A DNA stretch of 64,000 nucleotides from Planctomycetota bacterium (GTDB lineage Bacteria; Planctomycetota; MHYJ01; JACQXL01): positions 29,438-93,437 of the forward strand of contig JAZDMB010000032.1 in the NCBI GenBank assembly GCA_043801445.1, written 5' to 3'. The notes under the pieces were generated by a model that worked only from the letters and a program-made list of their open reading frames with translations, had not been told where the DNA came from and did no database searches. Numbering within the stretch: the stretch's first letter is position 1; each line of letters starts with the position of its first letter. Both the position numbers and the translations under genes were made by a program. Shown piece after piece: positions 4,406-47,310 of this stretch.

Positions 4406-7330
4406 ATGATGCGTTATTATTTTTATATCTTAATTATCTTGGTTGTTTTGGGCCAAGCAGGTTCTCTTTTTGCCGTTCCGGCGTGTCCCACCCCGTTTAC
4501 CGGCAAACAGCCGGACGGAAAAGAATTTAAAATACACCTCAAAGGTGATGAATGGACAAACTGGACAGAAACAGAGGATGGCTATCCTATAATTATTAAC
4601 AAAAACACGAGGTTCTGGGAATACGGAAAGATTGGGGTATCAAAAAAGCTGTCTCCAACCGGCCAAATCGTTGGAAAAGACGCGCCGGTCGGGATAAACA
4701 AAATATCGGCAAAAGATTTACCTGCCCGACTGGATATCCGGTCAGGCGGGCCCGGAAAAGGTTTCAGGACGCCTCGCCCGAACGCCGGAGGCGGGCAGGC
4801 TGGCGCTTCTTCTCCGACTTCTGAATCACCTCAATCCGCTCCGCTGAATATTATTGGCACACGCAAACTCCTGGTGATTTTAGTCGGTTTTGCTGATAAA
4901 AGTTTAACTACTACTGAAACAAGTTGGGTTGACAGGATTTTTGGAGCAACAAACAGCGCAAAGAAATACTATGATGAAGTTTCCTACAATCAATTTAACC
5001 TTGCTCCGGCTGAAGAAACATATGGCACAATAAATAACGGTATCGTTGTGGTAACTTTGACATCCAATCATCCCAATACCGGAGAGGACACAGACACCCG
5101 AAATCAGCAACTTACCAAAGATGCGATTATAGCGGCTGACCCTTATGTCAATTTTGCGTCCTTTGATAGTAATAGCGATGGAACAATTACAACAAATGAA
5201 CTGAATGTTATGATTATTGCCGCAGGTTATGAAACGGCTTATTCTACTTCATCCACGCCTTCAGTGTGGGCGCATAAATGGGCTATTGACGACATTACCG
5301 CTCCTATAGTGGATGGAAAAACCGTAGGTGCTTATCCGGGTGGTTATACTCAATTCGGTGAATTACATGGCACATCAGTTACTAACCATCAGGCAACCAT
5401 CGGGGTTATTATCCATGAATTTGCCCATGACTGCGGCAACGTCACTACTTACTTAGGATTACCTGACTTCTATGACACTGACAGTACCTCATACGGTATT
5501 GGATACTGGGATTCTATGGCGTCTGGTATGTGGCTACCTACCACAGGAAGTTATCAGGGCGACACGCCTTCTCATTTCAGCGCATGGTGTAAATGGTATT
5601 CAGGATGGGTTACACCAACCCGGATTACTGTTTCTACAAATGGTGTTTCTTTCCCGCAAGTTGAAACAGCCACCGGAGCAGACCACGGAATTAAACAGAT
5701 TTTGAGTAATCCAAACGGACCGGAAATTGGCGGCACCGGTGAATATTTCCTGATTGAAAACAGGCAGAAAACCGGTTATGATGCTGGCCTCCCAGCTGCG
5801 GGCATTCTGATATGGCATATTGATGAAACACAAAATGATAATGATACAGAGACGCGAAAACTTGTAGATTTAGAGGAAGCGGATGGTCTAACCCAGCTTG
5901 ATAATAAAATTAGTAAAGGAGACGCAGGCGACCCTTATCCGGCAACAACTACTAACAGAACATTCAATTATACTTCTAATCCAAATAGCAGACTTTATAG
6001 CGGCTCGGATAGTAATATGAGCGTTACAAATATCAGTGATTCCGGCGCAACAATGACAGCAGATATTAACAATAGCAATACAGACCAACCACCGGTACTG
6101 ACGTCGCCTGGGAATAAGAGTGTTGGCGAAAATGCCTTATTAACTTTTACGTTATCAGCCAGTGACCCGGATGGTGATACAATCAGTTATTCTATGGCAG
6201 GCACGCCGACCGGCTCAACCCTGAATTCCACGACGGGCGCATTTTCATGGACGCCAAACTACTTCCAATCAGGCGTTTATGCAATGACCTTTACCGCCAC
6301 GGCAAATAGCTTATCAGACTCCGAACCGATAAATATCACGGTAAATAATGTCGACCGGCCTCCGGCATTAACCTCGCCGGGTAATAAAAGCATCGATGAA
6401 AATCAGGTGTTAACCTTTACGCTATCCGCGACCGACCCGGATGGCGATACAATCAGTTATTCTATGGCAGGCACACCGACCGGCTCAACCCTCAATTCCT
6501 TGACAGGCGTATTTTCCTGGACGCCGAATTACTTCCAATCAGGCGTTTATCCGGTGACCTTTACCGCCACGGCAAATAGTTTATCAGACTCCAAATCGAT
6601 AACCATCACGGTAAATAATATCGACCGGTCTCCGGCATTAACCTCGCCGGGCAATAAAAGTATCGATGAAAATCAGGTGTTGACCTTTACGCTATCCGCA
6701 ACTGACCCGGATGGCGATACAATCAGTTATTCTATGGCAGGCACGCCGACCGGAACGACCTTGAATTCTGCTACCGGTATCTTCAACTGGACGCCGGATT
6801 ATACCCAGATAGGCATTTACAGTATTACTTTCACGGCAACATCCAATGTTTTATCTGATTCCAAAACCATAACCGTAACAGTATTACTGATACCGCCGGC
6901 TAACCTCACAGCTACCGCTATTTCATCTTATGCGATAAGACTCAACTGGACAGATACATCAATTAACGAAACCGGATTTAAGATAGAACGCAGTCCTGAC
7001 AATATTACCTTCACTCAAATTTCTATGGTCGGCTCCAATATAACCTCTACTCTTGATACAAATCTTTCTGCTGAGACTGATTATTATTACCGTATAAAAG
7101 CTTATAATAGTACGGGTAATTCCGACTATTCTAATGTAGTTTCGGCGACGACATTTGCTCTGATTTCAGCCGGTTCCAGCGGTAAAGGCAGCCACAAGGC
7201 ATTTTCTAAATGCGGTTGTTTGGGAATAGAACCATTATTAATTCTATTTCTTATCAGCCTGTTGGGAATCCGTAAATCGTTCAAGAAAAATAGTAGCCAC
7301 GAAGACACAAAGGCACTAAGAAGAAAGTAA
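4406..7330 (+). CDS. Secreted multidomain zinc metalloprotease (M6/InhA-like HEFAHDCG...LPDFYD) with three cadherin-like/He_PIG repeats, one FN3 domain and a C-terminal hydrophobic anchor
   Basis: Signal peptide MMRYYFYILIILVVLGQAGSLFA. HExxH motif VIIHEFAHDCGNVTTYLGLPDFYD resembles the immune-inhibitor-A M6 family. Three ~94-aa repeats contain DPDGDTISYSMAGTPTGSTLNS. FN3-like segment PPANLTATAISSYAIRLNWTD...YYYRIKAYNSTGNSDYS. C-terminal GIEPLLILFLISLLGIRKSFKK. The last ~12 codons (HEDTKALRRK) are encoded by the dispersed CACAAAG repeat. Confidence 0.85.
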   Translation: MMRYYFYILIILVVLGQAGSLFAVPACPTPFTGKQPDGKEFKIHLKGDEWTNWTETEDGYPIIINKNTRFWEYGKIGVSKKLSPTGQIVGKDAPVGINKISAKDLPARLDIRSGGPGKGFRTPRPNAGGGQAGASSPTSESPQSAPLNIIGTRKLLVILVGFADKSLTTTETSWVDRIFGATNSAKKYYDEVSYNQFNLAPAEETYGTINNGIVVVTLTSNHPNTGEDTDTRNQQLTKDAIIAADPYVNFASFDSNSDGTITTNELNVMIIAAGYETAYSTSSTPSVWAHKWAIDDITAPIVDGKTVGAYPGGYTQFGELHGTSVTNHQATIGVIIHEFAHDCGNVTTYLGLPDFYDTDSTSYGIGYWDSMASGMWLPTTGSYQGDTPSHFSAWCKWYSGWVTPTRITVSTNGVSFPQVETATGADHGIKQILSNPNGPEIGGTGEYFLIENRQKTGYDAGLPAAGILIWHIDETQNDNDTETRKLVDLEEADGLTQLDNKISKGDAGDPYPATTTNRTFNYTSNPNSRLYSGSDSNMSVTNISDSGATMTADINNSNTDQPPVLTSPGNKSVGENALLTFTLSASDPDGDTISYSMAGTPTGSTLNSTTGAFSWTPNYFQSGVYAMTFTATANSLSDSEPINITVNNVDRPPALTSPGNKSIDENQVLTFTLSATDPDGDTISYSMAGTPTGSTLNSLTGVFSWTPNYFQSGVYPVTFTATANSLSDSKSITITVNNIDRSPALTSPGNKSIDENQVLTFTLSATDPDGDTISYSMAGTPTGTTLNSATGIFNWTPDYTQIGIYSITFTATSNVLSDSKTITVTVLLIPPANLTATAISSYAIRLNWTDTSINETGFKIERSPDNITFTQISMVGSNITSTLDTNLSAETDYYYRIKAYNSTGNSDYSNVVSATTFALISAGSSGKGSHKAFSKCGCLGIEPLLILFLISLLGIRKSFKKNSSHEDTKALRRK
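6085..6900 (+). repeat. Three intragenic near-identical ~280-bp tandem repeats inside the metalloprotease gene
   Basis: DNA and protein identity are visibly >85% between copies. Confidence 0.9.
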
Positions 7331-7883: not shown

Positions 7884-8438
7884 ATGAATACAAATATGTC
7901 GCATCCGATAACCAATAAAGAAGAACGGCTCTTTAAGGGTTATGTCAAGGAAGTGCCGGATTTCCCTAAGAAAGGAATCCTATTCAGGGATATAACACCA
8001 TTGCTGAGCGACTCGAAAATATTCAAGAAGGTAATCCATAAAATGTGCCAACCCGTAGATGCCAAGTTGGTTGACCGGGTCGCCGGGATAGAATCAAGAG
8101 GATTTATATTGGGCGGCGCAATGGCATTAAATTGGGATGTCGGATTTGTCCCGATAAGAAAAGCAGGCAAACTCCCTTGCGCTACCTACAAAGAAAGTTA
8201 CGGTTTAGAGTACGGGAAAGCCGTAATTGAAATCCATCGGGACGCATTTACTCCCAAACAGAATGTTATATTAGTGGATGATGTCCTAGCTACAGGCGGG
8301 ACAGCCAGAGCGGCTTGTAAGCTGATTGAGAAATGCGGAGCCAAAGTCGTAGCCTGTATCTTTTTAATCGAATTGACGGGCTTGAAAGGAATCCGAAAAC
8401 TGGACAAATATAACGTATTCAGTCTGTTGAAATATTAA
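7884..8438 (+). CDS. apt: Adenine phosphoribosyltransferase
   Basis: PRPP-binding motif VILVDDVLATGGTA and GIESRGFILGGAMA. The ORF track starts at 7827 inside a repeat element; the Met at 7884 (MNTNMSHPITNKEE) is the plausible start. Confidence 0.9.
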   Translation: MNTNMSHPITNKEERLFKGYVKEVPDFPKKGILFRDITPLLSDSKIFKKVIHKMCQPVDAKLVDRVAGIESRGFILGGAMALNWDVGFVPIRKAGKLPCATYKESYGLEYGKAVIEIHRDAFTPKQNVILVDDVLATGGTARAACKLIEKCGAKVVACIFLIELTGLKGIRKLDKYNVFSLLKY

Positions 8439-8454
8439 GTTGAATCCGCCAAAC

Positions 8455-8579
8455 TTGCCCGACTGGCAGGCGGGTCTGCGGTAAACCGTATTGTAAACTT
8501 TCACCACAAAGGCACAAAGAACACAAAGTATTTTTCTCTCTGCGTCTCTGCGGTGAACCTACCCGACTCGTCAGGCAGG
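8455..8579. repeat. Intergenic mosaic: two GC-rich palindromic elements (8455-8477, 8558-8579) flanking a CACAAAG/CTCTGCG heptad hairpin (8496-8556)
   Basis: CTTGCCCGACTGGCAGGCGGG; CACCACAAAGGCACAAAGAACACAAAG...CTCTGCGTCTCTGCGGTG; CCTACCCGACTCGTCAGGCAGG. Confidence 0.8.
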
Positions 8580-8761
8580 TTGTCCCACGGGGTAGTTACA
8601 CTCATTTTATTCAGATAGGACTTGACTTTTATAAAAGTTATTGGTATTTATAAGAAAACTTCGTAACCGCTGATTTGGCGGATTAGGCTGATATTATTAA
8701 TCTTAATCCGTTTAATCTGCATAATCCGCGGTTTCTTTTATACTTTTCTATACTCTAAAAT

Positions 8762-9253
8762 ATGTTTTACGAAGATGTCTTCAGGGCATTGAACAAGGCA
8801 AGAGTTAAATATTTAGTGGCAGGCGGTTTCGGTGTTGTATTACACGGTTTCCCCCGCTTCACCGCAGATTTAGACCTGATTATCCATCTGGAAGAAAAGA
8901 ATATTGATAGATTCTTTGAGACGGTTGCGAAATTAGGCTACCGTCCCCGGCTGCCTGTTACCAAAGAAGACTTTAAGAATAAACATAAAAGAACAGAATG
9001 GATAAAAACCAGGAATATAACGGTCTTTTCGTTCTTCCATTCCAAGAAACCGATGGAGACCATAGATTTGTTCGTGAAAGAGCCAATCAAATTTGAGGTA
9101 ATGGCAAAAGACGCCGAGAAGATTAAGGTAAAAGGTATTACTATCCCAACACTATCTATAAAACACCTGATACGATTGAAGAAGAAAGCCGGCAGGCCGG
9201 AAGACCTTATTGATATAGCAAACCTGAAAGTAATACAAAAGGGTAATCAGTAA
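8762..9253 (+). CDS. Minimal nucleotidyltransferase-fold protein (pol-beta superfamily)
   Basis: GGFGVVLHGFPRFTADLDLII matches the GS-x(9-13)-DxD NTase signature. 163 aa. First gene of the accessory island. Confidence 0.65.
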   Translation: MFYEDVFRALNKARVKYLVAGGFGVVLHGFPRFTADLDLIIHLEEKNIDRFFETVAKLGYRPRLPVTKEDFKNKHKRTEWIKTRNITVFSFFHSKKPMETIDLFVKEPIKFEVMAKDAEKIKVKGITIPTLSIKHLIRLKKKAGRPEDLIDIANLKVIQKGNQ

Positions 9254-9531
9254 TGGCAAAAAAATGTCTCCGCCAAAGGCGGATCTGCCTCTGGCACAGG
9301 GTTGCAGGAAAAAGACTGCATCCGACTAATAAAATCAAACCCAACGAACATCTAAAGGAATACCTCAAAACCACGCCATTACAACGGCTTGAATGGCTGG
9401 AGCAAGCCAACAAATTCGTCTATGAAAACCACCTGGCAAAGATAGGAACCAAACCCGCCCGAACCTGCCCGAATGACCATTCGGTCGGGCGGGCGACCAT
9501 AGGGTCGGGCAGGCACGAAACCAAGAATTAA
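9253..9531 (+). CDS. Small basic hypothetical protein, start overlapping the NTase stop; the 3' end is encoded by GC-rich palindromic repeats
   Basis: ATGGCAAAAAAATG start overlaps the NTase stop. The C-terminal ~30 codons coincide with stacked CCTGCCCGA/GTCGGGCAGG palindromes, so the real extent is uncertain. Confidence 0.35.
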   Translation: MAKKCLRQRRICLWHRVAGKRLHPTNKIKPNEHLKEYLKTTPLQRLEWLEQANKFVYENHLAKIGTKPARTCPNDHSVGRATIGSGRHETKN

Positions 9532-9857
9532 CCACAAGATTAGCACCAGATTTTCACGAGATTTCTCTGGTGCCAATCTGCCTGCCTACTTGGTATAATC
9601 TGTGGTTTATTTCTTTCTTGTATTCATGTCCTCTTTATAAAATTATCCGTGTTCATCTGCGTTAATCTGTGTCCTATATTTCTCTGCGTCCTTTGCGCCT
9701 CTGCGGTTAAATTATACTACCTACTTCATACTTTATACTACATACTTCTCTATCCCCTCAGCACGACCACCTGTCCCGTTAGAAGCAACCAAATTGCTGT
9801 AGAGACGAATGAAATTATATCACATATTGAAAGCGAGGCTTCTAACGGGCTGAGAAG

Positions 9858-10805
9858 CTATCCCCTCAGGACTACTACCTCAAATGTATTATCCGCTATA
9901 GCCGGTTGGTTCAGCAGGATTGAAATCCCTGTCCCTTGCGGTAGCCCCGGTAACAGGAATAGTTGTCTAATCAACTGGTCTTGATTCACAGGTATAGAGT
10001 AACCCAAAATCACACCGCCATTCAAATCAGGGTCACCCAAAGGCGGATATAGTCCGCCTACCTGTAATGCCGGAATCGTGATACTGATAACCTTGTAGGA
10101 TAATTTGGTTTTCGTCACCGCGCCGTTCTGGATTTTTTCCGTTGACACACTGTCTACTGCCAACTGACTACTGCCTACTGCGCCAGCCCCAATTTCATCT
10201 GTAGCCACCGGAGGCACCAATGGTCTTGATACACCGCCACCACCCGGAGCAATCCACTCAAATCTTTCCTGTGCCTGATTGTAAGAAGGGACTTCGCCAT
10301 TAGCCGGAGCATCGATTGCCCTGATATGTCTTGGCTCAACCGACCCGTTAATAATCTCCAGATAGCCCACCGAATTAGAAGCCAGTTTTACTTTAGTCAC
10401 TGAGTTAGTGGCAAGTTTATCGGCAGTAACAGCGCTTGCCTTTATCTTATCCGCAGTAATCGCGTTATTCTGGATTTTAGTTTCGGAAACCGCATTATCG
10501 GCAATTTCCACAGTTGCAACGGGCGGGGTCAAAGGTCTGCCCAGAACCCCATCACTGATTTTGTCTTTAGTGATAGTTCCGTCTGCGATTTTAATGCCCG
10601 TGATTGCACCGTCAATAATCTTGCTTGTAGATATTGAACGGTCAGCAATCTTCTCGCCCGTAACCTGCTTATCAGCAATCTTATCAGTCTTAACTGCCCC
10701 ATCCTTGATTTTGTTAGTCGTAACCGAATTATCAGCCAGTTTGGATTCGGTTACCGCATAAGATGCGATGTTTGGGGTTTTGACTTCATTTGGTTTTAAT
10801 GACAT
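9858..10805 (-). CDS. Repeat protein with about 20 copies of an 11-residue K-I-x-D-G-A-V-T-type repeat (beta-helix-like; tail-fibre-like or adhesin-like)
   Basis: Visible periodicity NKIKDGAVKTDKIADKQVTGEKIADRSISTSKIIDGAITGIKIADGTITKDKISDGV... followed by a non-repetitive C-terminal domain. Confidence 0.6.
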   Translation of the reverse strand: MSLKPNEVKTPNIASYAVTESKLADNSVTTNKIKDGAVKTDKIADKQVTGEKIADRSISTSKIIDGAITGIKIADGTITKDKISDGVLGRPLTPPVATVEIADNAVSETKIQNNAITADKIKASAVTADKLATNSVTKVKLASNSVGYLEIINGSVEPRHIRAIDAPANGEVPSYNQAQERFEWIAPGGGGVSRPLVPPVATDEIGAGAVGSSQLAVDSVSTEKIQNGAVTKTKLSYKVISITIPALQVGGLYPPLGDPDLNGGVILGYSIPVNQDQLIRQLFLLPGLPQGTGISILLNQPAIADNTFEVVVLRG

Positions 10806-11008
10806 ATAAATCTCCTTTTAGAGCCAGTTAGAATCCCGCTTTAGCGGGATGAGTTACAGGCTCTTATCCCGATGAGCATAGCGACATCGGGGTCTTTGCC
10901 ACAAAGCACACAAAGGACACAAAGTTAAGTGTTTTATTATGCTTCGTAGTTTATTTACTACAGCGTAGGGGCGGTTTTACCCGCCCCCACAATCTGTATA
11001 ATCTGTGG

Positions 11009-11821
11009 CTACACCGTTGACACCTGGATTTCCAGGAACATCTTACTATCCACCAGAATGTAGTCGCAATGACTATCTCCGCCTGTAGTGAATGGCTCAT
11101 ATGTTACGGAATCCTGCAAGCCCTTGATTATCGCATTAATGGCGTCGTTCTCTTTGGCAAAAGCCGCCGCAAGCATTTTGCTATCAAGGATAATCACGCC
11201 GCTTTTGGTCAGTTGCTGTGCCAGAGCCACCTTTAGGGCAGTTCTGGTATCAACCGTTGTGACTTGCGCCACATTGACCGGACCGCCTGATATGACTATA
11301 TCAGCTCCGCGGATATGACCCTCCGCAGTCGGCTCATCAGTCAGCCAGAGCGGAGCAATGCCGGACACCGATTTACCGATGGTTTTTTCCCCGGTAAAGG
11401 GCAATGACCGTTTTGCTACCCTGCTGACATACAGGTCAACCGCATTATCAACGCTTTCCTTGTAGCGTTTGCCGATTTCGCCGTCAATCTCCTCAAATGC
11501 CCGAAGCAACTTGGCTTCGTATTTATTGAAGGTGTTTAGGACGTTCTCGGCCTGGGTATTGACGATGTCATTCCGGGACTTACCGCTTCGTGACCTGAAG
11601 GTGGCAGACGGGAACGGTGCATAACCTTCACTGGATGGTCCGCCCAGTTTAAGTTTGTAAGCCATTTCGTCCGGTATGATAAGTTTCCGTTTCATATCAA
11701 TTACCTCTGCCTTGTTCTTCAGACCGTCACGCCAGCCGTTGCTCATATGTTCCGGGATTGTGGTTAAATCCAGCGGCACGAACAACCTCACTTTACTTAC
11801 TATTGTTGACATTTTTCTCAC
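11009..11821 (-). CDS. Hypothetical protein (270 aa; size fits an HK97-fold capsid or encapsulin-like shell protein, but no supporting motif was found)
   Basis: Clean ORF with repeat elements on both sides. No recognisable catalytic motif. Confidence 0.5.
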   Translation of the reverse strand: MRKMSTIVSKVRLFVPLDLTTIPEHMSNGWRDGLKNKAEVIDMKRKLIIPDEMAYKLKLGGPSSEGYAPFPSATFRSRSGKSRNDIVNTQAENVLNTFNKYEAKLLRAFEEIDGEIGKRYKESVDNAVDLYVSRVAKRSLPFTGEKTIGKSVSGIAPLWLTDEPTAEGHIRGADIVISGGPVNVAQVTTVDTRTALKVALAQQLTKSGVIILDSKMLAAAFAKENDAINAIIKGLQDSVTYEPFTTGGDSHCDYILVDSKMFLEIQVSTV

Positions 11822-11858
11822 CCCCTTTTCTTGTCTGTTAAAGTTTTACAATGGTTAA

Positions 11859-11990
11859 CCCGCCTGACTGGCGCCAGTCGGGCAGGTGCGCGCATCGTTT
11901 GGTTTGTTTCACCACAAAGAACACAAAGGTCACAAAGAATTTCTCTGTGTGCTCTGTGTCTCTGTGGCAAAGATTACTTGCTGAGCCAGT
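11859..11990. repeat. GC-rich palindromic element (CCCGCCTGACtggcgccaGTCGGGCAGG) plus heptad hairpin (CACAAAG x3 / CTCTGTG x3)
   Basis: Read directly from sequence. Confidence 0.8.
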
Positions 11991-12375
11991 GTCTGAGTTT
12001 CCTGATTCCAATTGCATAGAGTTCCAAGACCCTGTTTGTGCTGATACCCACAGCCAGTGCGGTGTAATTAACCGAGCGCCTGTAAGAGGCAATCTCCATA
12101 ACTACTTCCGCCTCTATTTGGCTCACGATTCCGCCTTCTACTGCTTCTAAAAGAGTGGACGAACCCATATAGTTCCGAAGTTCCTTGTTTGTCTCTGGAA
12201 CAGCGGGCGGAATGGCTGGCTCCGCTTCCGGGGCGGGCATCACTGCACCTGCCCTAATGATTTCTTCTAACATGGTTTTTCTCCATCTCTGCCACTGAGA
12301 CACAGAGTCCACAGAGGACTTAGTGTCTTTGTGTCTTGGTGGCTGTTTAAGGTGTTCATATCTATTGTCCTCCAA
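11974..12375 (-). CDS. Small sigma-70 region-4-like HTH protein
   Basis: C-terminal IEAEVVMEIASYRRSVNYTALAVGISTNRVLELYAIGIRKLRHWL resembles sigma region 4 / LuxR-type HTH. The N-terminal ~35 codons of the track ORF are encoded by a CACAGAG/CTTTGTG repeat, so the true start is probably the Met near 12270 (MLEEIIRAG). Confidence 0.55.
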   Translation of the reverse strand: MEDNRYEHLKQPPRHKDTKSSVDSVSQWQRWRKTMLEEIIRAGAVMPAPEAEPAIPPAVPETNKELRNYMGSSTLLEAVEGGIVSQIEAEVVMEIASYRRSVNYTALAVGISTNRVLELYAIGIRKLRHWLSK

Positions 12376-12544
12376 AATACATAAGGTGAATTGTCGCAGG
12401 TTGGCTGATATTATTTTTGCATGATTTGGCTAATTTGCCTTAACCCCAGTATTGGCAAGCAATTTGAGCCAAAGAATTTTTGAGGAATTTTTGGAATGCG
12501 CTGATTTTAGCCGAATGATTTGGAACTAGTTCCCTCTTTTGGGC

Positions 12545-12875
12545 TCATAAGGTGCGTCCTTCAGCGATATACCCTATGTCCTTATGAATAAAACCGTATG
12601 TCCTTTTGGAATAAACCCAATGTCCCTTTGTTATAAACCCTACGTCCTTATGAAATAAACGATATGTCCTTCTGTTTCAAACGGTATGTCCTTTTGGAAT
12701 AAATCGTATGCCCTTTTATTTCAAATCCTATGTCCTTTTGGAACAAATCGTATGTCCTTTTGTTCTAAAAAGTGTGTCCCTTTAGAATAAATCCAACGTC
12801 CTTATATAACAAACGATATGTCCTTTTATAATAAACGGTATGTCCTCTTGGGAAACACCCTATCCAGCGTGGGAA
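12545..12875. repeat. Direct tandem array of ~13 x 22-bp units (consensus TATGTCCTTTTGGAATAAATCG), iteron-like
   Basis: Units abut with no spacers. The TATGTCC core is conserved and the 3' half is variable. Confidence 0.9.
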
Positions 12876-12982
12876 TAATACCTACTACCTCTTAGATAAC
12901 ATGGGGTATCCCCTGCCAGTAGGGGGGTGGGGGTAAACCAAGGGTAATTGGGTGATTAGGATATTAGGAAATCAGTGGGGAA

Positions 12983-13654
12983 TTAGGGAATTGGGAAGGG
13001 TTCGGGTTCTTCGTCGTCCGGGATATTATCTATGTCGTGCTTCCATTCGTCCGGGTTATAGGCCTTTAACTGGAACTTGGTCTTGTAGGTGTAGGCTTCG
13101 GAATAGGGATGGAACGGGTCTTCGGCAAGCCCGAAGAACGTCTTGAGTTTCTGACGCAGTCCGTAGATTGACTTCTTGGTGCGTGAAATCTCTTTGGCTG
13201 AGTATTTATCGGTATGAATGATACTGGATTTGCCTATCATTTCCGTGGATTCCGAGTCGTCATCATCACCATCTGCGTTCCAGCGGTGCTTGATTCTGCC
13301 GCCCTTGCGCCAAGGGAGTTCGCCGTCGTGCTCTGCCAGCCGTTGCAGTAGTTTCCAGTGCCGGTCAGGGCTCAGCCGGCTCTTGCGGAGTTTATCGTAG
13401 CAATCTAATTCTACGAAATTGACCTTACGGGGCTTGGGCATAACGTTGCGGATTGAAATCAGGGCGTATGTCTCGCTCAGTTTAATAACAATATCTTGCC
13501 AGTTAGTTCCGGTCGGAAGTGGGAATTTGGGCGTTCTGATAGCGGAGAGAACCGGCGCCTGTGCCTTGAACCCGGAAAGGAACGAGATAATCTGGTCTAA
13601 TTTACGGTTGATAGACTGTAAACATTCATTATCAATATTGTCTTTGGAGGACAT
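12983..13654 (-). CDS. Hypothetical acidic protein (223 aa, DGDDDDSES patch)
   Basis: Starts 8 bp after the stop of the DUF4238-like gene, so likely co-transcribed. No recognisable domain. Followed by the 22-bp tandem array. Confidence 0.6.
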   Translation of the reverse strand: MSSKDNIDNECLQSINRKLDQIISFLSGFKAQAPVLSAIRTPKFPLPTGTNWQDIVIKLSETYALISIRNVMPKPRKVNFVELDCYDKLRKSRLSPDRHWKLLQRLAEHDGELPWRKGGRIKHRWNADGDDDDSESTEMIGKSSIIHTDKYSAKEISRTKKSIYGLRQKLKTFFGLAEDPFHPYSEAYTYKTKFQLKAYNPDEWKHDIDNIPDDEEPEPFPIP

Positions 13655-13662
13655 AATTATTT

Positions 13663-14628
13663 CTATTTAGAATTAGGTGTCGTATCAACGAAATTCTCTG
13701 ATATATTAAAATAAGGTTTTATATTATCTTTAATGAACTCAGAATCAGTAGAAGAATAGATGCATTCATTAGCCCACATTAATGTTCTATTATTAAATAT
13801 TTTAACATTTTCAGGGGGTAATGGAATGACACTTGGTTTTTTATACCAAGTTAACATCAAACAAATACTGGGACATAACGGGATAGTTATTTCAATATCT
13901 TTTTGAGCAATCCCATAACCGTACGGACTATTCTGGAGTTTCGGATTAAATAAAACAAAAGGATTATCAGAGGTTATAAAGGGATGCTCGTCAAGCGTTG
14001 CTAGATAGGAAAAATTCATACGAGCAATCTTATTTACCAAACTCATATCTTGGCCTAAAGTAACCATGGCTCTAAGGTGGGGAATATTGTTAACAGAAAT
14101 ATTATATTTTTTACTTAGTGCAAATTGTCTCAGATTTTCCACCTCACCTGGTTTATTGCCGACATCTATTTTAGCTTTCTTTATCGTATTCTCAAAAAGT
14201 GTTTTATCTGAGGCAACCATTAATGTTGCCTTCTTAATTACATCCTTTATAAACACATTAATATTTTCTCTCATATCAGGCGTTCTTAGAAACAGATACA
14301 AAAGAAAATACGCCAGGTCGGTTTTTTCCTGATTAGATAGGCGGACAGGATTTCTGAGGATTTTCTTTATGACATTGAAAGCTCCGCTTTCTATTCGCGC
14401 AAGAATTGTTTCTAAATCTCTATTTGGCCTGTCTTCTTTATCTTTTACGGTATAGAACTCTTTCTGAACGGCAACATTTATTAGATTCGCCCGAAAAGGT
14501 TTTCTCTGGCGGTGAAAAACCCAGATTGCGTCAGTAATTCTCTTGTTTTTATCGGGAATACAAAAATTCTTAAGATAGAATTGCGGAATAGTATGCTGTC
14601 TTTTAGTGTTATTATTTGATGTTCCCAT
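13663..14628 (-). CDS. DUF4238-like protein
   Basis: N-terminal KRQHTIPQFYLKNF resembles the conserved H-x-V/I-P-Q-F-Y-L motif that opens DUF4238 proteins. 321 aa. Confidence 0.6.
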   Translation of the reverse strand: MGTSNNNTKRQHTIPQFYLKNFCIPDKNKRITDAIWVFHRQRKPFRANLINVAVQKEFYTVKDKEDRPNRDLETILARIESGAFNVIKKILRNPVRLSNQEKTDLAYFLLYLFLRTPDMRENINVFIKDVIKKATLMVASDKTLFENTIKKAKIDVGNKPGEVENLRQFALSKKYNISVNNIPHLRAMVTLGQDMSLVNKIARMNFSYLATLDEHPFITSDNPFVLFNPKLQNSPYGYGIAQKDIEITIPLCPSICLMLTWYKKPSVIPLPPENVKIFNNRTLMWANECIYSSTDSEFIKDNIKPYFNISENFVDTTPNSK

Positions 14629-14710
14629 ACTTATTTTTGTTCGGAATTATGTATTGCGTTATCAGAATTATTCAGTTATTACCACATTAATATTTTGATT
14701 GCTCTCGCCA

Positions 14711-15079
14711 TTATTCATCTTTCCGTATAAATGAATTGATTTCATCAGAAACTGTATCCAAAATAATAAGTAAGATTACTACTAATCCCATTAGTGATAA
14801 CCCAATAGGATAGATTATATTCCTTATCGGTTTTATCTCTTTCTCTGGGAATATACTAATAATCAAAGATAACACAACTAAACTTGCTAAAGCAAAAATG
14901 TCCCCCTTAAGGAACCAACCTATTAAACGGATAGAATCGCTTTCGTAATGAATTGTCTTACATATTGGACAGGTCTGATATCTATGAGTAACTGATACAT
15001 GTTTATCGTCAGTCCCTTCCCATTTATGCTTACATCGCTTACATTCTAATAATCTTAGTGTTTCCATAAAACCTCCCAT
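14711..15079 (-). CDS. Small membrane protein with N-terminal CxxC...CxxC zinc ribbon and two TM helices
   Basis: CKRCKHKW...CPICKTIH, then two hydrophobic helices (IFALASLVVLSLIISIF and IGLSLMGLVVILLIIL). Lies 82 bp upstream of, and co-directional with, the DUF4238-like gene. Confidence 0.55.
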   Translation of the reverse strand: MGGFMETLRLLECKRCKHKWEGTDDKHVSVTHRYQTCPICKTIHYESDSIRLIGWFLKGDIFALASLVVLSLIISIFPEKEIKPIRNIIYPIGLSLMGLVVILLIILDTVSDEINSFIRKDE

Positions 15080-15133
15080 CTAATAAAAAAGTTTCTCGCG
15101 GGACAGTGGCGCTAAATCCTCCGCTTAATCCGT

Positions 15134-16177
15134 TTAATCCTGTGTAGTCGCAACGGAGTCCCGATTATTTCGGGGTTGTTTTATTCCTTCAAGTTCGCCG
15201 AGTTTATCGCGCGCTTCGGCATAGTCGGGTTGAATCCGAATCGCCTCTTTGAAGCATTCCATCGCTTTCTGGTTATCGCCCCGAAGTTCTTCGGGACTCC
15301 GCTTCGCTTCGCCGGTTTGTTCATAGGCCACGCCCAGATTAAAGTGCGCTATGGCAAGGTCAGGTTCAATATAAATCGCCTCGTTATAGCATTCTATCGC
15401 TTTTTGATGCTCGCCTATTTTCCCATACATAAAACCGAGATTATTATGCGCCTCGGCATGGGCAGGTTTAAGCCGAATCGTTTTTTCAAAGCATTCTATC
15501 GCTTTCTGATAATCGCCGGCTTCCCCATATATACGGCCAAGATTACAGAGCATCTCGTCATCGTTGGGGTCAAGCCGAGTCGCCTCTTTGAGGCATTCTA
15601 TGGCTTTCTGGTTATCGCCTGTTTTCATATAGGCAAAACCAAGGCTACAGTGTGCCAGGGCATAGTCAGGTTTAAGCCGAATTGCCTCTTTATAGCATTC
15701 CATCTCTTTCTGATAATCGCCTGTTTTCCAATACGCCACGCCTAGATTATAGTGCGCTATGGCATTGTCAGGTTTAAGCCGAATCGCCTCTTTATAGCAT
15801 TCTATCGCTTTTTGATTATCACCCCCGCCTGAACAGCCGGGTTGGGCAGGTGTTTTATCATACAGAAGACCAAGACCATAGTATGCATCGGCATTGTCAG
15901 GTTTAATCCGAATCGCCTCTTTGAGGCATTCTATCGCTTTCGGATTATCACCTATTTTCCCATAGATACGACCAAGGTTACAGTGTGTATCGGCCAGGTC
16001 AGGTTTAATCCGAATCGCCTCCTTAAAGCATTCTATCGCTTTCTGATAATCACCTGTTTTCGCATACAGAACACCAAGACTACAGTGTGCATCGGCATAG
16101 TTAGGTTTAAGCCGGATTGTCTTCTTAAGGGATTCTATAGATGCTTCTATAAGTACATTTTTCATAACGGCCTCCAA
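15134..16177 (-). CDS. TPR repeat protein with about 9 near-perfect 34-aa repeats
   Basis: Repeated QKAIECxKEAIRxKPDxAxAHxNLGxxYxKxGDY. C-terminal PRNNRDSVATTQD is encoded by a TCCCGATTATTTCGGGA palindrome. Confidence 0.85.
   Translation of the reverse strand: MEAVMKNVLIEASIESLKKTIRLKPNYADAHCSLGVLYAKTGDYQKAIECFKEAIRIKPDLADTHCNLGRIYGKIGDNPKAIECLKEAIRIKPDNADAYYGLGLLYDKTPAQPGCSGGGDNQKAIECYKEAIRLKPDNAIAHYNLGVAYWKTGDYQKEMECYKEAIRLKPDYALAHCSLGFAYMKTGDNQKAIECLKEATRLDPNDDEMLCNLGRIYGEAGDYQKAIECFEKTIRLKPAHAEAHNNLGFMYGKIGEHQKAIECYNEAIYIEPDLAIAHFNLGVAYEQTGEAKRSPEELRGDNQKAMECFKEAIRIQPDYAEARDKLGELEGIKQPRNNRDSVATTQD
15230..16140 (-). repeat. Intragenic 102-bp tandem repeats (TPR units)
   Basis: Near-identical 34-codon units repeated ~9 times. 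Confidence 0.85.
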
Positions 16178-16296
16178 ATTCTATAATCCAGTAATCCGTT
16201 TATTCTTATCCATAATTCTTCGTGTTCTTTTAGCGCCATAAGCCCAGTAGGTCGGCACCAGTGGTTAATCCTATTTCGTCAACCGTTTAATTCTCT

Positions 16297-16355
16297 ACGC
16301 AGTGCGTAAAGTTTCTTATCATGAGATTCTGCACGCAGTGCGTGCAGTTTTAATT
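16297..16355. promoter_or_regulatory. Two copies of palindrome ACGCAGTGCGT spaced ~35 bp apart between the two TPR genes
   Basis: TACGCAGTGCGTAAAGTTT and CACGCAGTGCGTGCAGTTTT; a 5-1-5 palindrome, twice. Confidence 0.3.
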
Positions 16356-16489
16356 CAAGAGACGCCATACTTAATCATAGATTGCTTCGGGACTTTGTCC
16401 CTCGCAATGACAGCCCGGGAATCAGATTCCTGTTTTCCTGGTCTCCTTATAGATATATTATTATTCTTTGTGCTCTTTGTGGTTAATAC

Positions 16490-17851
16490 TTATTTAACTA
16501 TCTTTAAGAACTCCTTTGCCATTTGCCGAGATTTCTTATTGTTGTTGATTTGGCCGTAGATGCCGATGAGCATAGAGTAATTAGCCGCAGTCATCCCCGC
16601 CTTCGCCAAGGCTTCGGCGGGCAGGCCTTTTCCTTTGAGTTTCTTGGCTATCTTCAAGGATTTGAGATGCATCTGTAATGCCTTTTTGCGGTTGGCAAAT
16701 CCCATATAGATGCCGCCCAAATGGAAATAGCACTGCGCCACTCTCAGAAGATTCTTGTTCTTCTGATAGATTAATGACGCTGTTTCAAGCGATTTTAATG
16801 CCTCATTTAATCTGCCCTGTTGCCTGTAGGTATTGCTGAGGTTGTAATAAGCCTCGGCATAATCCGGTTTTAATTCTATGGCTTTTCTGTAGGTGATGAT
16901 GGCGCTCTCGTAGTCGCCCTGCTCAGTGTAAACACAAGCCAGATTATAATAGCCAACCGGCTGGGTCGGCTTTGCCTTAATCGCTTGCTGGTAGCAATCT
17001 ATGGCTAAGTCATAATCTTTTTTCTTGAGATAATCACCGGCTAAATTATAGAGGCAGTCAAAATCATCGGGTTTGAGATGAAGCGCCTTGAGATAGGTCT
17101 TTATGGCTTGGTCATACCTACCGGCTTTGGATAAATCACAGCCAAGGTTATAATGGGCGATAAAATCCTGCGGTGCAATTTGGGTCGCCTTCTTAAGCAG
17201 TGTAATTGCCTTTTTAATGTTTCCTCTTAAGGCAAAAACCTTGGCGCTGTTAATATATGACTTGGTATCCTGCGGAGCAAGTTTCAGGGCTTTGCTGAAG
17301 AATGTCATTGCCTTGTCCATATTACCGATGGTCCCATAAGCAATGCCTGAATTATTGAGAGCATCAATGTCATCGGATTTAAGTTTCAGGGCGTTTTCCA
17401 ATACCGTAATCGCTTCACGGTGGCTTGACTTATCCGGCTGTTCGGTGAGAACCAGTCCGAGATTATTGTATGCCATTGCCAGAGAGCGGTTAATGACAAT
17501 AGCAGTCCGGTAGGCATTAATGGCTTTAGGAATGTCTGTTTTACGGTAATAAGTATTGCCTAAATTATACCAGGCAAGAGCGGCATCTTCATCCAGCCCG
17601 CCGACCTTGATTGCCTTCTGGTAAGAAGCGATTGCTTGGTCAAGGTTACCAAGGTCAGAATAGACATTGCCGATGTTGTAATGTGCTACTGCATAATTGG
17701 GCTTGAGGACGAGCACTTTCTGGAATACGGTCAATGCCTCATCCAATTTTTTCTTATCATACAAGGCAAGTCCCTGGTCGAAAAGTATCTCTGGCACCGC
17801 AGTGGCGTCCCGATTATTTCGGGAGTTCTTAATTGGCTGGAAATTAATCAT
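16490..17851 (-). CDS. TPR repeat protein
   Basis: 453 aa of canonical TPRs (AxxNLGxxYxxxGxxxxAIxxYxKAL). N-terminal NSRNNRDATAV is encoded by the same palindrome as the neighbour's C-terminus. Confidence 0.85.
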   Translation of the reverse strand: MINFQPIKNSRNNRDATAVPEILFDQGLALYDKKKLDEALTVFQKVLVLKPNYAVAHYNIGNVYSDLGNLDQAIASYQKAIKVGGLDEDAALAWYNLGNTYYRKTDIPKAINAYRTAIVINRSLAMAYNNLGLVLTEQPDKSSHREAITVLENALKLKSDDIDALNNSGIAYGTIGNMDKAMTFFSKALKLAPQDTKSYINSAKVFALRGNIKKAITLLKKATQIAPQDFIAHYNLGCDLSKAGRYDQAIKTYLKALHLKPDDFDCLYNLAGDYLKKKDYDLAIDCYQQAIKAKPTQPVGYYNLACVYTEQGDYESAIITYRKAIELKPDYAEAYYNLSNTYRQQGRLNEALKSLETASLIYQKNKNLLRVAQCYFHLGGIYMGFANRKKALQMHLKSLKIAKKLKGKGLPAEALAKAGMTAANYSMLIGIYGQINNNKKSRQMAKEFLKIVK

Positions 17852-18130
17852 ATAAGATTCTCCTTATCTTCTAATCATTGGGGAACGAATTCAACTCCCC
17901 TATTACGCGGCATTTTACCCGCTAAACCAATCCGAGTCAAGGAGAATCTTGGATAAAATGGTTGAAAGCCACAGATTATTTATCCCATATGAGGGACACA
18001 AATTGATTTATAAGAAAACCAAGGATAATTCCCGTTCTCTTTACCTGCTTGCCTAATATCAATCTGTATAGCCCCCACGACGCTCAAAATTTACTATAAA
18101 TAATTTATTTTATGAAAATTAATAATTTAG

Positions 18131-18160
18131 TTGACAGATTGAAACAAATTGGTTTAATAT
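18131..18160 (+). promoter_or_regulatory. Sigma70-like promoter of the S10 ribosomal operon (TTGACA-N18-TAATAT)
   Basis: TTGACA at 18131-18136 and TAATAT at 18155-18160. Sits 30 bp upstream of the rpsJ start in an AT-rich leader. Confidence 0.55.
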
Positions 18161-18191
18161 ACAATTCTTTTGAATTAGGGAAAAAGACTTT

Positions 18192-18503
18192 ATGAAAATA
18201 CCAAAGATTAGAATACGGGTCCGAGCCTATGACCATACTGTATTGGACCATTCCGTAGCGGAAATTGTCAATACGGCGAAGAAGACCGGTACAAAAGTAT
18301 CGGGTCCGATTCCTCTTCCGACCGATATTGAGCGTTATACGGTATTGCGTTCCCCTCATGCCGATAAAAAATCAAGGGAACAATTTGAAATCAGAACCCA
18401 TAAACGTCTGATTGAGTTGTTAGACCCAACACCTCAAACTACCGATGCATTGAAAAACCTTAATATGCCCAGCGGCGTAGATATTCAGATAAAAGTAATC
18501 TAA
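18192..18503 (+). CDS. rpsJ: 30S ribosomal protein S10
   Basis: [19 protein letters not shown]...[22 protein letters not shown]. Confidence 0.95.
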
Positions 18504-18514
18504 AATTATAAAAT

Positions 18515-19243
18515 ATGTTACCGTTACAGGGATTATTGGCTAAAAAAATAGGAATGACGCAGATATTCAAGGAAGACGGCACTCTTATTCCTGTTACTGT
18601 TTTGAAAACAGGTCCTTGCACTGTTTTACAAATCAAGACTGTTAAAACCGACGGGTATAATGCGGTTCAAATGGGGTTTGAGAATAAGAAGAAGCAAAAT
18701 ACCACCAAACCGATACTGGGTCATATAAAAAAAGCGCTGGTAGTCGAGCCACCGCGTTATATCAGAGAAATCAGATTATCAGACGGGCCAACAGGCGAAA
18801 AAGAAGCGGAATCATTTAAAGCCGGAGACCAGATTACAACTGATATTTTCGAGGGCGTTTATAAGGTATGCGTTATGGGTATTACCAAGGGCCGCGGATT
18901 TGCCGGCATGGTCAGGCGCTGGAATAAGCATAGAGGTCCGGAAAGCCATGGTTCTATGAATGTAAGAGGCCCCGGTTCAATCGGTTCTGATACCCGTTTA
19001 ACTCATATCAGACCGGGTAAACATATGGCGGGCCATTATGGAGTAGACCAATTAACCGTAGATAATTTAGAGGTTATTAAAATAGATAAAAATAGAAACC
19101 TGCTCTTTGTTAAAGGAGCGGTACCCGGAGCTAAAAACGGCTTGATAACGGTTTATAAAACCGCTTTGGTTAAAAAAATACCTGTTGTAAGTAAATCAAA
19201 AGGTAAAAAGCCGGAGCCCAGAGCAGCTGCGGCTAAAAAATAG
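18515..19243 (+). CDS. rplC: 50S ribosomal protein L3
   Basis: GLLAKKIGMTQIF...GITKGRGFAGMVRRWN. Confidence 0.95.
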   Translation: MLPLQGLLAKKIGMTQIFKEDGTLIPVTVLKTGPCTVLQIKTVKTDGYNAVQMGFENKKKQNTTKPILGHIKKALVVEPPRYIREIRLSDGPTGEKEAESFKAGDQITTDIFEGVYKVCVMGITKGRGFAGMVRRWNKHRGPESHGSMNVRGPGSIGSDTRLTHIRPGKHMAGHYGVDQLTVDNLEVIKIDKNRNLLFVKGAVPGAKNGLITVYKTALVKKIPVVSKSKGKKPEPRAAAAKK

Positions 19244-42859: not shown

Positions 42860-42906
42860 AAACCGGAGCTACTGCCTCCCGTAGAGACAAATAACACGGA
42901 GTATTT

Positions 42907-47305: not shown

Positions 47306-47310
47306 ATTGG

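What the first reader, a model, noticed from the sequence alone, without database searches (positions are those of the whole stretch)
12983..15079. Three-gene co-directional cassette (zinc-ribbon membrane protein, DUF4238-like protein, acidic 223-aa protein): candidate uncharacterised defence-type system
On the minus strand, a 122-aa protein (CxxC...CxxC ribbon plus two TM helices) is followed after 82 bp by a 321-aa protein whose N-terminus HTIPQFYLKNF matches the DUF4238 hallmark. That is followed after only 8 bp by a 223-aa acidic protein with no recognisable domain. The cassette sits in a repeat-riddled accessory island between apt and the TPR genes, next to an iteron-like array. From memory, DUF4238 proteins occur in phage-defence islands, possibly as a component of the two-gene Dazbog system; I cannot verify that. 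A small zinc-ribbon membrane partner is typical of abortive-infection effectors. I do not recognise this three-gene arrangement as a described system.
Basis: partly seen in the sequence, partly recalled or inferred. Interest (0 to 1): 0.7.

Follow-up and report, generated by a model that had tools for sequence, protein, structure and literature searches.

The report
DUF4238 defence gene in variable hotspot
The three neighbouring genes are not one system: a DUF4238 gene, from a family with one known single-gene anti-phage member, and an orphan membrane protein are swapped-in cargo in a variable genomic slot, and the third gene is the slot's fixed neighbour.

Summary
The three minus-strand ORFs exist as described, and the 321-aa protein is a clear DUF4238 member (139 bits, cutoff 27). 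It also matches the PADLOC DUF4238-Pers profile. The triplet is not a conserved unit.

The 223-aa gene has 67-82% identical orthologues in related Planctomycetota metagenome contigs. There it always precedes the same 22-bp repeat array and three downstream genes. The genes just upstream of it differ in every lineage: PD-T4-1 + Mrr-like nuclease + PIN, DUF3800 + unknown, or unknowns only. A neighbouring slot holds PDC-S02/YhcG.

The Zn-ribbon and DUF4238 genes are compositionally foreign (GC3 26-30% versus 61% for the 223-aa gene). Two copies of a ~38-nt junction element bracket DUF4238. The Zn-ribbon membrane protein is an orphan and was absent beside DUF4238 in eight other loci.

Published work shows that one DUF4238 protein alone protects E. 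coli from T7. Dazbog contains DUF262, not DUF4238.

Best reading: a stand-alone DUF4238 defence gene sits as cargo in a defence hotspot. Its biochemistry is unknown, and the fold has no solved relative. This is a new member of a known kind. The hotspot yields several untested candidate defence genes.

The parts
16490..17851 (-). TPR-A: conserved left-flank TPR protein (453 aa)
   Evidence: 63-64% identical orthologues in L005 and L008 in the same relative position.
15134..16177 (-). TPR-B: conserved TPR protein (347 aa) that forms the immediate left flank of the variable slot
   Evidence: 74% identity to L007, 65% to L005 and 45% to L001. DNA homology to L007 and L005 ends at about 15194-15201.
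15095..15107 (-). Left slot-border motif ACTGTCCCGCGAG
   Evidence: The same 13-mer lies 10 nt before the first cargo gene (PD-T4-1) in L007 and 27 nt before the Zn-ribbon Met5 ATG here. It occurs once in the 64-kb window.
14711..15079 (-). Cargo gene 1: orphan Zn-ribbon (CxxC-20-CxxC) protein with two TM helices. Likely start is Met5 at 15067 (118 aa).
   Evidence: ORF. TM segments, GC 32.2% and GC3 26%. Only sub-threshold Zn-ribbon hits, e.g. TIGR04104 at 18.5 bits against a cutoff of 45. No homologue other than itself. Shuffle test 24/5000.
14627..14672 (-). Junction element, copy 1. A 14-codon ORF remnant (LNNSDNAIHNSEQK*) followed after 2 nt by the DUF4238 ATG.
   Evidence: 86% identical over 37 nt to the sequence just upstream of the 223-aa orthologue's ATG in L003 and L005.
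13663..14628 (-). Cargo gene 2: DUF4238 protein (321 aa), the candidate stand-alone anti-phage gene
   Evidence: PF14022 at 139 bits against 27. PADLOC DUF4238-Pers at 57.9 bits, E 2.7e-16. phrog_29785. GC 33.5%, GC3 30%. AF2 pLDDT 93. Invariant H11, D220 and P222.
13653..13700 (-). Junction element, copy 2. It encodes the last codons of DUF4238 (...VDTTPNSK*), followed after 8 nt by the 223-aa ATG.
   Evidence: Homologous and in the same reading frame as the tails of Mrr_cat in L007 and the 383-aa gene in L003. This tail lies beyond the DUF4238 domain and is poorly modelled.
12983..13654 (-). 223-aa conserved right-flank gene (basic core, acidic patches). Not part of the cargo.
   Evidence: Ten homologues at 67-82% identity. 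Conserved downstream synteny with a variable upstream neighbour. GC 49.3%, GC3 61%. No family match, and AF2 pLDDT of 41.
12567..12850 (.). 22-bp tandem array (~12.5 copies), conserved in position next to the 223-aa gene
   Evidence: TRF. Equivalent 22-bp arrays downstream of orthologues in L001, L003, L007 and L025, with lineage-specific units.
11974..12375 (-). 133-aa conserved module gene
   Evidence: 58-79% identical orthologues in the same position in L001, L003 and L007. No family match.
11009..11821 (-). 270-aa conserved module gene
   Evidence: 81-88% identical orthologues. No match in Pfam, PHROGs, PDB or phage records.
9858..10805 (-). 315-aa conserved module gene with phage tail-fibre-like repeats
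   Evidence: phrog_892 tail fibre at E 1.7e-32. 55-58% identical orthologues.

Best explanation
The finding spans parts of two different things.

(1) A variable slot lies between a conserved TPR gene (TPR-B) and the conserved 223-aa gene. In this genome it holds two horizontally acquired, AT-rich cargo genes: an orphan Zn-ribbon membrane protein and a DUF4238 protein.

(2) The 223-aa gene is the first gene of a conserved module: 223-aa, 22-bp array, 133-aa, 270-aa, and a 315-aa fibre-like protein. Related genomes share this module whatever the cargo.

The DUF4238 gene most likely acts alone as an anti-phage gene of the Rst_DUF4238 kind. That would be one ~300-aa cytoplasmic protein doing both sensing and effector work. 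Residues H11, E72, E79, R114, D220 and N278 are invariant or nearly so, which suggests an enzymatic site.

What is shown: family membership, the hotspot architecture, the foreign composition and the lack of conserved partners.

What is inferred:
- That this copy actually defends against phages.
- That it is an enzyme.
- That the cargo is co-transcribed with the 223-aa gene and translationally coupled to it.
- That cargo is exchanged by recombination through the conserved flanks and the ~38-nt junction element.
For: Family membership:
- DUF4238 membership is strong.
- A single DUF4238 protein from a P2 prophage hotspot gave strong T7 resistance in E. coli (PMC9122126).
- This protein aligns over ~290 residues with the DUF4238 of P2-like phage pro483 (26% identity, E 8e-20).

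Hotspot architecture:
- Across six independent lineages the slot upstream of the 223-aa orthologue holds non-homologous cargo.
- That cargo includes PD-T4-1 (225 bits, full length), Mrr_cat, PIN and DUF3800/PDC-M04A. PDC-S02/YhcG (477 bits) sits in the adjacent slot.
- Flanks and the downstream module are conserved at 55-88% protein identity.

Foreign origin of the cargo:
- Cargo GC3 is 26-30%, against 61% for the 223-aa gene.
- The junction element occurs only twice in the 64-kb window, once on each side of DUF4238.

No conserved partner:
- DUF4238 is stand-alone in eight other loci, which include a P2-like phage hotspot and IncI plasmids.
- The Zn-ribbon protein has no homologue.
Against: - Only one distant DUF4238 (about 26% identical to phage-borne relatives) has been tested experimentally. 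The family is very large (4,671 clusters at 50% identity) and need not share one function.
- The two cargo genes share low GC, orientation and an 82-bp spacing, so they could have arrived together and could work together.
- The orphan status of the Zn-ribbon protein rests on methods with limited sensitivity for short proteins.
- Only six lineages of the hotspot were recovered, most on short contigs.
Confidence: 0.62

Rival explanations
1. A two-gene system. The Zn-ribbon membrane protein is a membrane-disrupting effector or an anchor that works with DUF4238 as the sensor. The 223-aa gene is unrelated.
For: - Both genes lie inside the slot, are co-directional and 82 bp apart, and have the same unusual composition: GC 32-33%, GC3 26-30%.
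- The Zn-ribbon gene looks real, with a Shine-Dalgarno site and 24/5000 in the shuffle test.
- Small TM proteins are common effectors in defence systems (general knowledge).
Against: - No Zn-ribbon/TM partner was found next to DUF4238 in eight other loci, including the closest relative at 43% identity.
- A junction-element remnant separates the two genes, which suggests separate cassettes.
- DUF4238 alone suffices in E. coli.
- The Zn-ribbon protein has no homologues at all.
- Slots in other genomes hold several independent defence genes side by side.
Confidence: 0.18
2. The three-gene defence system proposed by the first reader: Zn-ribbon TM, DUF4238 and the 223-aa protein.
For: The genes are co-directional, and only 8 bp separate DUF4238 from the 223-aa gene.
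Against: - The 223-aa gene is conserved (67-82% identity) with completely different upstream genes in five other lineages, and always with the same downstream module.
- There is a sharp GC3 break between DUF4238 (30%) and the 223-aa gene (61%).
- Equally tight spacing (5-58 bp) occurs with every other cargo.
Confidence: 0.03
3. A platform model. The 223-aa gene and its array form a generic partner, such as a regulator or expression platform, that serves whichever cargo is inserted upstream. Under this model the adjacency is functional, though not specific to DUF4238.
For: - Cargo is always co-directional with the 223-aa start codon and abuts it (gaps of 5-58 bp).
- In two lineages, the window and L003/L005, the cargo gene next to the 223-aa gene reads in frame into a shared tail, and the 223-aa ATG follows within 5-8 nt. 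The same tail ends Mrr_cat in L007, one gene further upstream.
- The 22-bp array is conserved in five lineages.
Against: - The 223-aa protein has no detectable domain and a poor model.
- The OmpR-like DNA-binding idea failed a profile-profile test, with probability 1.4%.
- The junction element is absent at the 223-aa junction in four of six lineages.
- Conserved flanks next to hotspots are usually just recombination anchors (general knowledge of defence hotspots).
Confidence: 0.1
4. The cargo is not defensive here. DUF4238 would serve another role, such as mobile-element maintenance, or would be a decaying passenger.
For: - DUF4238 has no known biochemistry, and only one member has been tested.
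- It is frequent on conjugative plasmids, with 420 records.
Against: - The gene is intact, covers the full HMM and keeps all invariant residues.
- The same slot holds validated defence families in other genomes.
Confidence: 0.07

Closest known systems
Rst_DUF4238 (single-gene DUF4238 anti-phage system from the P2 prophage hotspot; Rousset et al. 2022, PMC9122126)
   Same: Same Pfam family, with a full-length match. It also hits the PADLOC DUF4238-Pers and PHROG 29785 profiles. The protein is about 300 aa with a single domain, has no conserved partner, and sits in a variable hotspot as swapped-in cargo.
   Different: Only about 26% identical to P2-like phage members. The host is a Planctomycetota MAG rather than an enterobacterial prophage. 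It carries an extra ~11-residue C-terminal tail encoded by the junction element. Activity is untested.
Defence hotspots flanked by conserved genes (P2/P4 hotspots, PMC9122126; E. coli and Pseudomonas island hotspots, PMC10121019, PMC12629846)
   Same: Conserved flanks with mutually exclusive cargo that differs between relatives. The cargo is rich in known defence families (PD-T4-1, Mrr-like, PIN, DUF3800, PDC-S02, DUF4238) and has anomalous composition.
   Different: - The flanks are a TPR gene and an uncharacterised 223-aa gene followed by a 22-bp array, not phage or tRNA landmarks.
- No integrase was seen among the neighbouring ORFs inspected.
- Cargo is always co-directional with the flank gene's ATG and almost abuts it.
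- In some lineages a ~38-nt junction element is read as the cargo's C-terminal tail.
Dazbog (DzbA/DzbB)
   Same: Nothing specific. Both are defence systems of unknown mechanism.
   Different: Dazbog is characterised by a DUF262 protein (PMC10952713). None of the three proteins has DUF262 or hits a Dazbog model.
Integron-like gene cassette arrays
   Same: Tightly packed, co-directional cargo genes separated by a short recurring element.
   Different: The ~38-nt element has no obvious attC-like inverted-repeat structure by eye. It is read as coding sequence, is absent from several junctions, and no IntI-type integrase was seen nearby. This comparison is an analogy only.
TIGR04104 (cxxc_20_cxxc putative zinc-finger proteins) and other Zn-ribbon + TM small proteins
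   Same: CxxC-20-CxxC spacing followed by hydrophobic segments. The alignment spans residues 12-102.
   Different: The score of 18.5 bits is far below the 45-bit cutoff, so it is not a member. No homologues were found.

Membership tests
DUF4238 (PF14022) / Rst_DUF4238 defence family | Match to the Pfam DUF4238 HMM above the gathering threshold, over the full length | tested here: met
   139 bits against a cutoff of 27, E 2.8e-40, profile 1-280/281.
DUF4238 (PF14022) / Rst_DUF4238 defence family | Match to the defence-specific profile used by PADLOC (DUF4238-Pers) | tested here: met
   57.9 bits, E 2.7e-16, profile 5-294/309. The same coordinates are matched on phrog_29785. The tool's own score threshold is not known to me.
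DUF4238 (PF14022) / Rst_DUF4238 defence family | Family-invariant residues present (H in the N-terminal HxxPxFYL motif; D and P in the TSDNP motif) | tested here: met
   H11, D220 and P222 are invariant in 82 sequences and present here. P14, F16, Y17, L18, F21, E72, E79, R114 and N278 are at least 90% conserved.
DUF4238 (PF14022) / Rst_DUF4238 defence family | Stand-alone, single-domain ~300-aa protein with no obligatory partner | tested here: met
   Relatives are almost all 290-350 aa. No conserved neighbour in eight loci.
DUF4238 (PF14022) / Rst_DUF4238 defence family | Confers phage resistance | not testable with these tools
   Shown only for an E. coli P2-hotspot member (PMC9122126).
Dazbog | A DUF262-containing protein plus its partner (DzbA/DzbB) | tested here: not met
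   No DUF262 hit and no Dazbog model hit at E<=1 in PADLOC. The literature assigns DUF262, not DUF4238, to Dazbog.
   The 223-aa orthologues have five other, unrelated upstream cargo sets. The Zn-ribbon protein is found nowhere else.
Defence hotspot (variable cargo between conserved flanks) | Orthologous flanks with non-homologous cargo in related genomes | tested here: met
   All-vs-all BLASTP across the window and L001, L003, L005, L007 and L008, plus L024 and L027.
Defence hotspot (variable cargo between conserved flanks) | Cargo enriched in known defence families | tested here: met
   PD-T4-1 at 225 bits, Mrr_cat, PIN, DUF3800/PDC-M04A, PDC-S02 at 477 bits, and DUF4238.
TIGR04104 cxxc_20_cxxc zinc-finger family (Zn-ribbon protein) | Score above the NCBIfam cutoff | tested here: not met
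   18.5 bits against a cutoff of 45.
OmpR/PhoB winged-helix effector domain (223-aa protein; my own lead) | Profile-profile similarity to Trans_reg_C domains | tested here: not met
   hhalign probability 1.4%, with 16 aligned columns. No Pfam hit in any of 11 family members.

The most novel reading that the evidence does not exclude
The conserved module is a previously undescribed cargo-capturing platform in Planctomycetota, possibly derived from a mobile element. It comprises the 223-aa gene, a 22-bp iteron-like array, a 133-aa gene, a 270-aa gene and a fibre-like gene.

Under this reading, defence genes are recruited at a precise junction immediately 5' of the 223-aa ATG. They are sometimes fused in frame to a shared ~11-residue tail, and they are expressed by translational coupling. 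The orphan Zn-ribbon membrane protein and the other unannotated cargo proteins would then be new defence genes. Those proteins are 260, 292, 383, 196 and 216 aa long.
Probability: 0.15. Interest if true: 0.6.

Novelty: new member of a known kind. Interest (0 to 1): 0.3.

Why it matters
- It places a member of the DUF4238 defence family in Planctomycetota, a phylum with almost no experimental phage-defence data.
- It shows that the apparent three-gene operon is a composite of cargo and flank.
- It defines a hotspot with clear borders, from the TPR-B 3' end and the ACTGTCCCGCGAG motif to the 223-aa start.
- The uncharacterised cargo proteins in that hotspot are candidate new defence genes by association. 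They are the Zn-ribbon TM protein here and the 260-, 292-, 383-, 196- and 216-aa proteins in relatives.
- The DUF4238 model is confident (pLDDT 93) yet has no solved structural relative. The family therefore remains a worthwhile target for structural and biochemical work.

Tried and rejected
- OmpR/PhoB-like winged helix in the 223-aa protein. It looked plausible by eye, and 22 bp would fit a pho-box-like dimer site. It was rejected: hhalign probability was 1.4%, there were no Pfam hits in 11 members and no PDB hits.
- Structure of the 223-aa protein. AF2 gave pLDDT 41, so no fold search was attempted.
- Back-translated genome scans with DUF4238 alignments failed because the family is too divergent.
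- Exact look-up of the window's DUF4238 protein found no record.
- Is the conserved module viral? Viral-contig scans found no 223-aa or 270-aa relatives. The 270-aa protein had no phage tblastn hit and no PDB hit. Only the 315-aa protein has tail-fibre-like repeats.
- Rfam over 8000-19000 found nothing.
- The promoter and terminator scan was at background level, so it was not used.
- The genome-collection scan for the 223-aa family gave only one true locus, which duplicates L007. A spurious Blautia hit at 24% identity was ignored.
Full report
**Observation**

One search confirms three co-directional minus-strand ORFs:
- 14711-15079, 122 aa
- 13663-14628, 321 aa
- 12983-13654, 223 aa

The gaps between them are 82 bp and 8 bp.

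The first protein has two CxxC pairs, at C13/C16 and C37/C40, and two strongly hydrophobic segments at about 56-78 and 87-110. A GGGAGG Shine-Dalgarno sits 4 nt before Met5, and NCBI annotates that 118-aa form. An open frame of this length arose in only 24 of 5000 shuffles of the local AT-rich sequence.

The 321-aa protein matches Pfam DUF4238 over the whole model, at 139 bits against a cutoff of 27. It also matches the PADLOC profile DUF4238-Pers at 57.9 bits, E 2.7e-16, and phrog_29785.

The 223-aa protein matches nothing in Pfam, NCBIfam, PHROGs or PADLOC. It is not acidic overall: its pI is 8.4, and it has a basic core with two acidic patches.

The adjacent iteron-like array is real, with 12.5 copies of a 22-bp unit at 12567-12850.

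The source is an NCBI Planctomycetota MAG, locus tags V1871_05335 to 05345.

**The triplet is not a unit**

The three proteins have very different phyletic patterns:
- DUF4238 is a huge family, with 4,671 clusters at 50% identity. The nearest relative to this copy is 43% identical.
- The Zn-ribbon protein has no homologue other than itself. This holds in the 5.8-billion-protein collection, in phage and plasmid records, and in viral contigs.
- The 223-aa protein has ten homologues at 67-82% identity.

I fetched the contigs that encode the 223-aa homologues and compared all ORFs. This revealed a syntenic backbone:

TPR-A, TPR-B, [slot], 223-aa, 22-bp array, 133-aa, 270-aa, 315-aa.

Backbone protein identity is 55-88%. 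The slot contents share no similarity between lineages:

| Lineage | Slot contents |
|---|---|
| Window | Zn-ribbon TM + DUF4238 |
| L001/L002 | 260-aa unknown |
| L003-L006 | 292-aa + 383-aa unknowns |
| L007 | 414-aa + 265-aa + 152-aa |
| L008/L027 | 210-aa + 196-aa |
| L024 | 216-aa unknown |

The 22-bp array recurs downstream of the orthologue in L001, L003, L007 and L025. The period is the same, but the unit sequence is lineage-specific.

The 223-aa gene therefore belongs to the conserved right flank, not to the cargo.

**The slot is a defence hotspot**

Scans of the alternative cargo gave:
- L007 414-aa: PD-T4-1, 225 bits, E 2.6e-67, profile 23-379/383
- L007 265-aa: Mrr_cat restriction-endonuclease domain
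- L007 152-aa: PIN
- L008 210-aa: DUF3800, matching PDC-M04A and DUF3800_VII
- A second slot between TPR-A and TPR-B in L001 and L005: DUF1016/YhcG, which is PDC-S02 at 477 bits

L008 also has a Cas6 C-terminal fragment just downstream.

In the window the cargo is compositionally foreign:

| Gene | GC | GC3 |
|---|---|---|
| Zn-ribbon | 32.2% | 26% |
| DUF4238 | 33.5% | 30% |
| 223-aa | 49.3% | 61% |
| TPR-B | 45.8% | not reported here |

DNA homology to the other loci stops near 15194-15201 and resumes at 13575-13612.

**Slot borders**

On the left, the 13-mer ACTGTCCCGCGAG lies 27 nt before the Zn-ribbon Met5 ATG at 15107-15095. The same 13-mer lies 10 nt before the PD-T4-1 ATG in L007.

On the right, a ~38-nt junction element occurs twice in the window and nowhere else in its 64 kb. 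One copy sits directly before the DUF4238 ATG. The other forms the last codons of DUF4238 and ends 8 nt before the 223-aa ATG.

The upstream copy is 86% identical to the sequence before the 223-aa orthologue's ATG in L003 and L005. Translation shows the same element, read in the same frame, as the C-terminal tail of unrelated genes:
- DUF4238 in the window: ...VDTTPNSK*
- Mrr_cat in L007: ...SDVTPNPEQK*
- The 383-aa gene in L003: ...PDNAIHSPKQK*
- A 14-codon remnant before DUF4238: LNNSDNAIHNSEQK*

The tail lies outside the DUF4238 domain and is poorly modelled.

I read this as a footprint of single-gene cassette exchange through a shared junction. That places DUF4238 and the Zn-ribbon gene in separate cassettes. 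The element is absent at the 223-aa junction in L001, L007, L008 and L024, so it is not a universal feature. I treat this point as supporting evidence only.

**DUF4238 elsewhere**

tblastn found DUF4238 on 420 plasmids, mostly conjugative enterobacterial ones, and in P2-like phage pro483.
- In pro483 it sits alone between the replication gene and the portal gene. The P2 hotspot is where Rousset et al. found a single DUF4238 protein that gives strong T7 resistance (PMC9122126).
- On IncI plasmids it neighbours DUF3800, a second DUF4238, or a convergent small 'abortive infection protein'.
- On Rhizobium pRL10 it lies near an N6-methylase gene.
- The closest relative, P0016 at 43% identity, has unrelated soluble upstream neighbours.
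- A scan of eight loci for any nearby ORF with two CxxC pairs plus TM segments found none in the upstream co-directional position.

The window protein aligns with pro483 gp11 over ~290 residues at 26% identity, E 8e-20.

**Mechanism**

The AF2 model is confident (pLDDT 93.3, pTM 0.89). It shows an N-terminal beta region, a central helical bundle and C-terminal strands.

No solved structure resembles it:
- Foldseek against PDB finds nothing.
- A sequence-profile search against PDB finds nothing meaningful.
- BFVD returns one uncharacterised protein, from the Stenotrophomonas phage Smp131.

Conservation across 82 relatives singles out H11, D220 and P222 as invariant. E72, E79, R114, T218 and N278 are at least 90% conserved. 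This pattern suggests an enzymatic site, but that is inference.

A 2024 survey lists Rst_DUF4238 among systems with no assignable domain family. My committed reading is a self-contained sensor-effector enzyme acting in the cytoplasm. The step from family membership and context to a defence function is well supported. The biochemical step is a guess.

**The Dazbog link**

The literature describes Dazbog as containing DUF262 (PMC10952713). None of the three proteins hits DUF262 or a Dazbog model.

**The 223-aa protein**

Its family is highly conserved; for example, KPRKVNFVELDCYDKLRKSRL is invariant. It has no detectable domain, and its model is poor (pLDDT 41).

An OmpR/PhoB-like winged helix, which I suspected by eye, failed a profile-profile test at probability 1.4%.

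Its constant association with the 22-bp array suggests a DNA-related role, but this is untested.

The module is not detectably viral, apart from tail-fibre-like repeats in the 315-aa protein.

**Verdict**

The finding is a new, divergent member of the DUF4238 family, one member of which is a proven single-gene defence. It sits as cargo in a newly delineated defence hotspot of a Planctomycetota lineage.

Its main value is the hotspot, which supplies candidate defence genes, and the still-open biochemistry of DUF4238.

Noticed in passing
window 44878-45060, 45194-45288, 45391-45450: A second cluster of 22-bp-period tandem arrays with different units (TACCTCCTATGGTTATATGGGA and TATGTTTCCGGGCTCAAAGGCG). 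It lies in an intergenic region upstream of a 376-aa gene at 45618-46748. C-rich and G-rich motifs resembling CCCCCACCCCCCTA, like the one next to the first array (12890-12936), flank and interrupt it. No homologue of the 223-aa gene is evident among the ORFs listed nearby (42500-48500, by eye). This may be a lineage-specific class of 22-bp arrays placed ~170-190 bp upstream of genes.
   Followed up: partly
window 12567-12850; L001 6777-7079; L003 3472-3904; L007 4599-4829; L025 764-1103: The 22-bp array downstream of the 223-aa gene is conserved in position and period in five lineages. The unit sequence differs between them (GGACATACG-type against GACGGTCAGTA-type). A 47-nt C-rich stretch before the array is 87% conserved between the window and L003/L005.
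   Followed up: partly
window 9858-10805 (-): The 315-aa protein has repeats that match phage tail-fibre families (phrog_892 at E 1.7e-32) and weakly match PD-Lambda-5_A. It is the last gene of the conserved module. No other phage-like gene is adjacent.
   Followed up: partly
window 8762-9253 (+) and 9253-9531 (+): A 163-aa nucleotidyltransferase-fold protein (Aminoglyc_resit/DUF2204/DUF6036, with a weak AbiEii hit) is followed by an overlapping 92-aa ORF. This could be a toxin-antitoxin-like pair lying between apt and the conserved module.
   Followed up: no
window 10900-10924, 11913-11966, 11938-11974/12285-12321; L007 981-1007, 5693-5727, 6591-6614: Short 8-9-nt tandem motifs (CACAAAGAA, TCTCTGTG, ATTCGTGTG) recur in intergenic regions of the locus in the window and in L007. 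One pair forms a 37-nt imperfect inverted repeat that spans the 3' end and the 5' region of the 133-aa ORF. They look like a lineage-specific intergenic repeat family.
   Followed up: no
L008 6062-6223: In L008, the sequence downstream of the 223-aa orthologue encodes a Cas6 C-terminal fragment (PF10040) instead of the 22-bp array. This suggests a rearrangement next to a CRISPR-Cas locus.
   Followed up: no
window 11974-12375 (-): By eye, the C-terminus of the 133-aa module protein (…SVNYTALAVGISTNRVLELYAIGIRKLRHWL) resembles a sigma-70 region-4-type helix-turn-helix. No Pfam hit supports this.
   Followed up: no
L011 2-915: Upstream of the closest DUF4238 relative (P0016) lies a protein that looks DUF4065/Panacea-like by eye. 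An overlapping 134-aa ORF follows it, so this may be a toxin-antitoxin pair next to DUF4238.
   Followed up: no
window 6140-6753 (within ORF 4406-7330 +): A 270-nt tandem repeat (2.3 copies, 90% identity) encodes repeated domains inside a 974-aa, probably secreted, protein.
   Followed up: no
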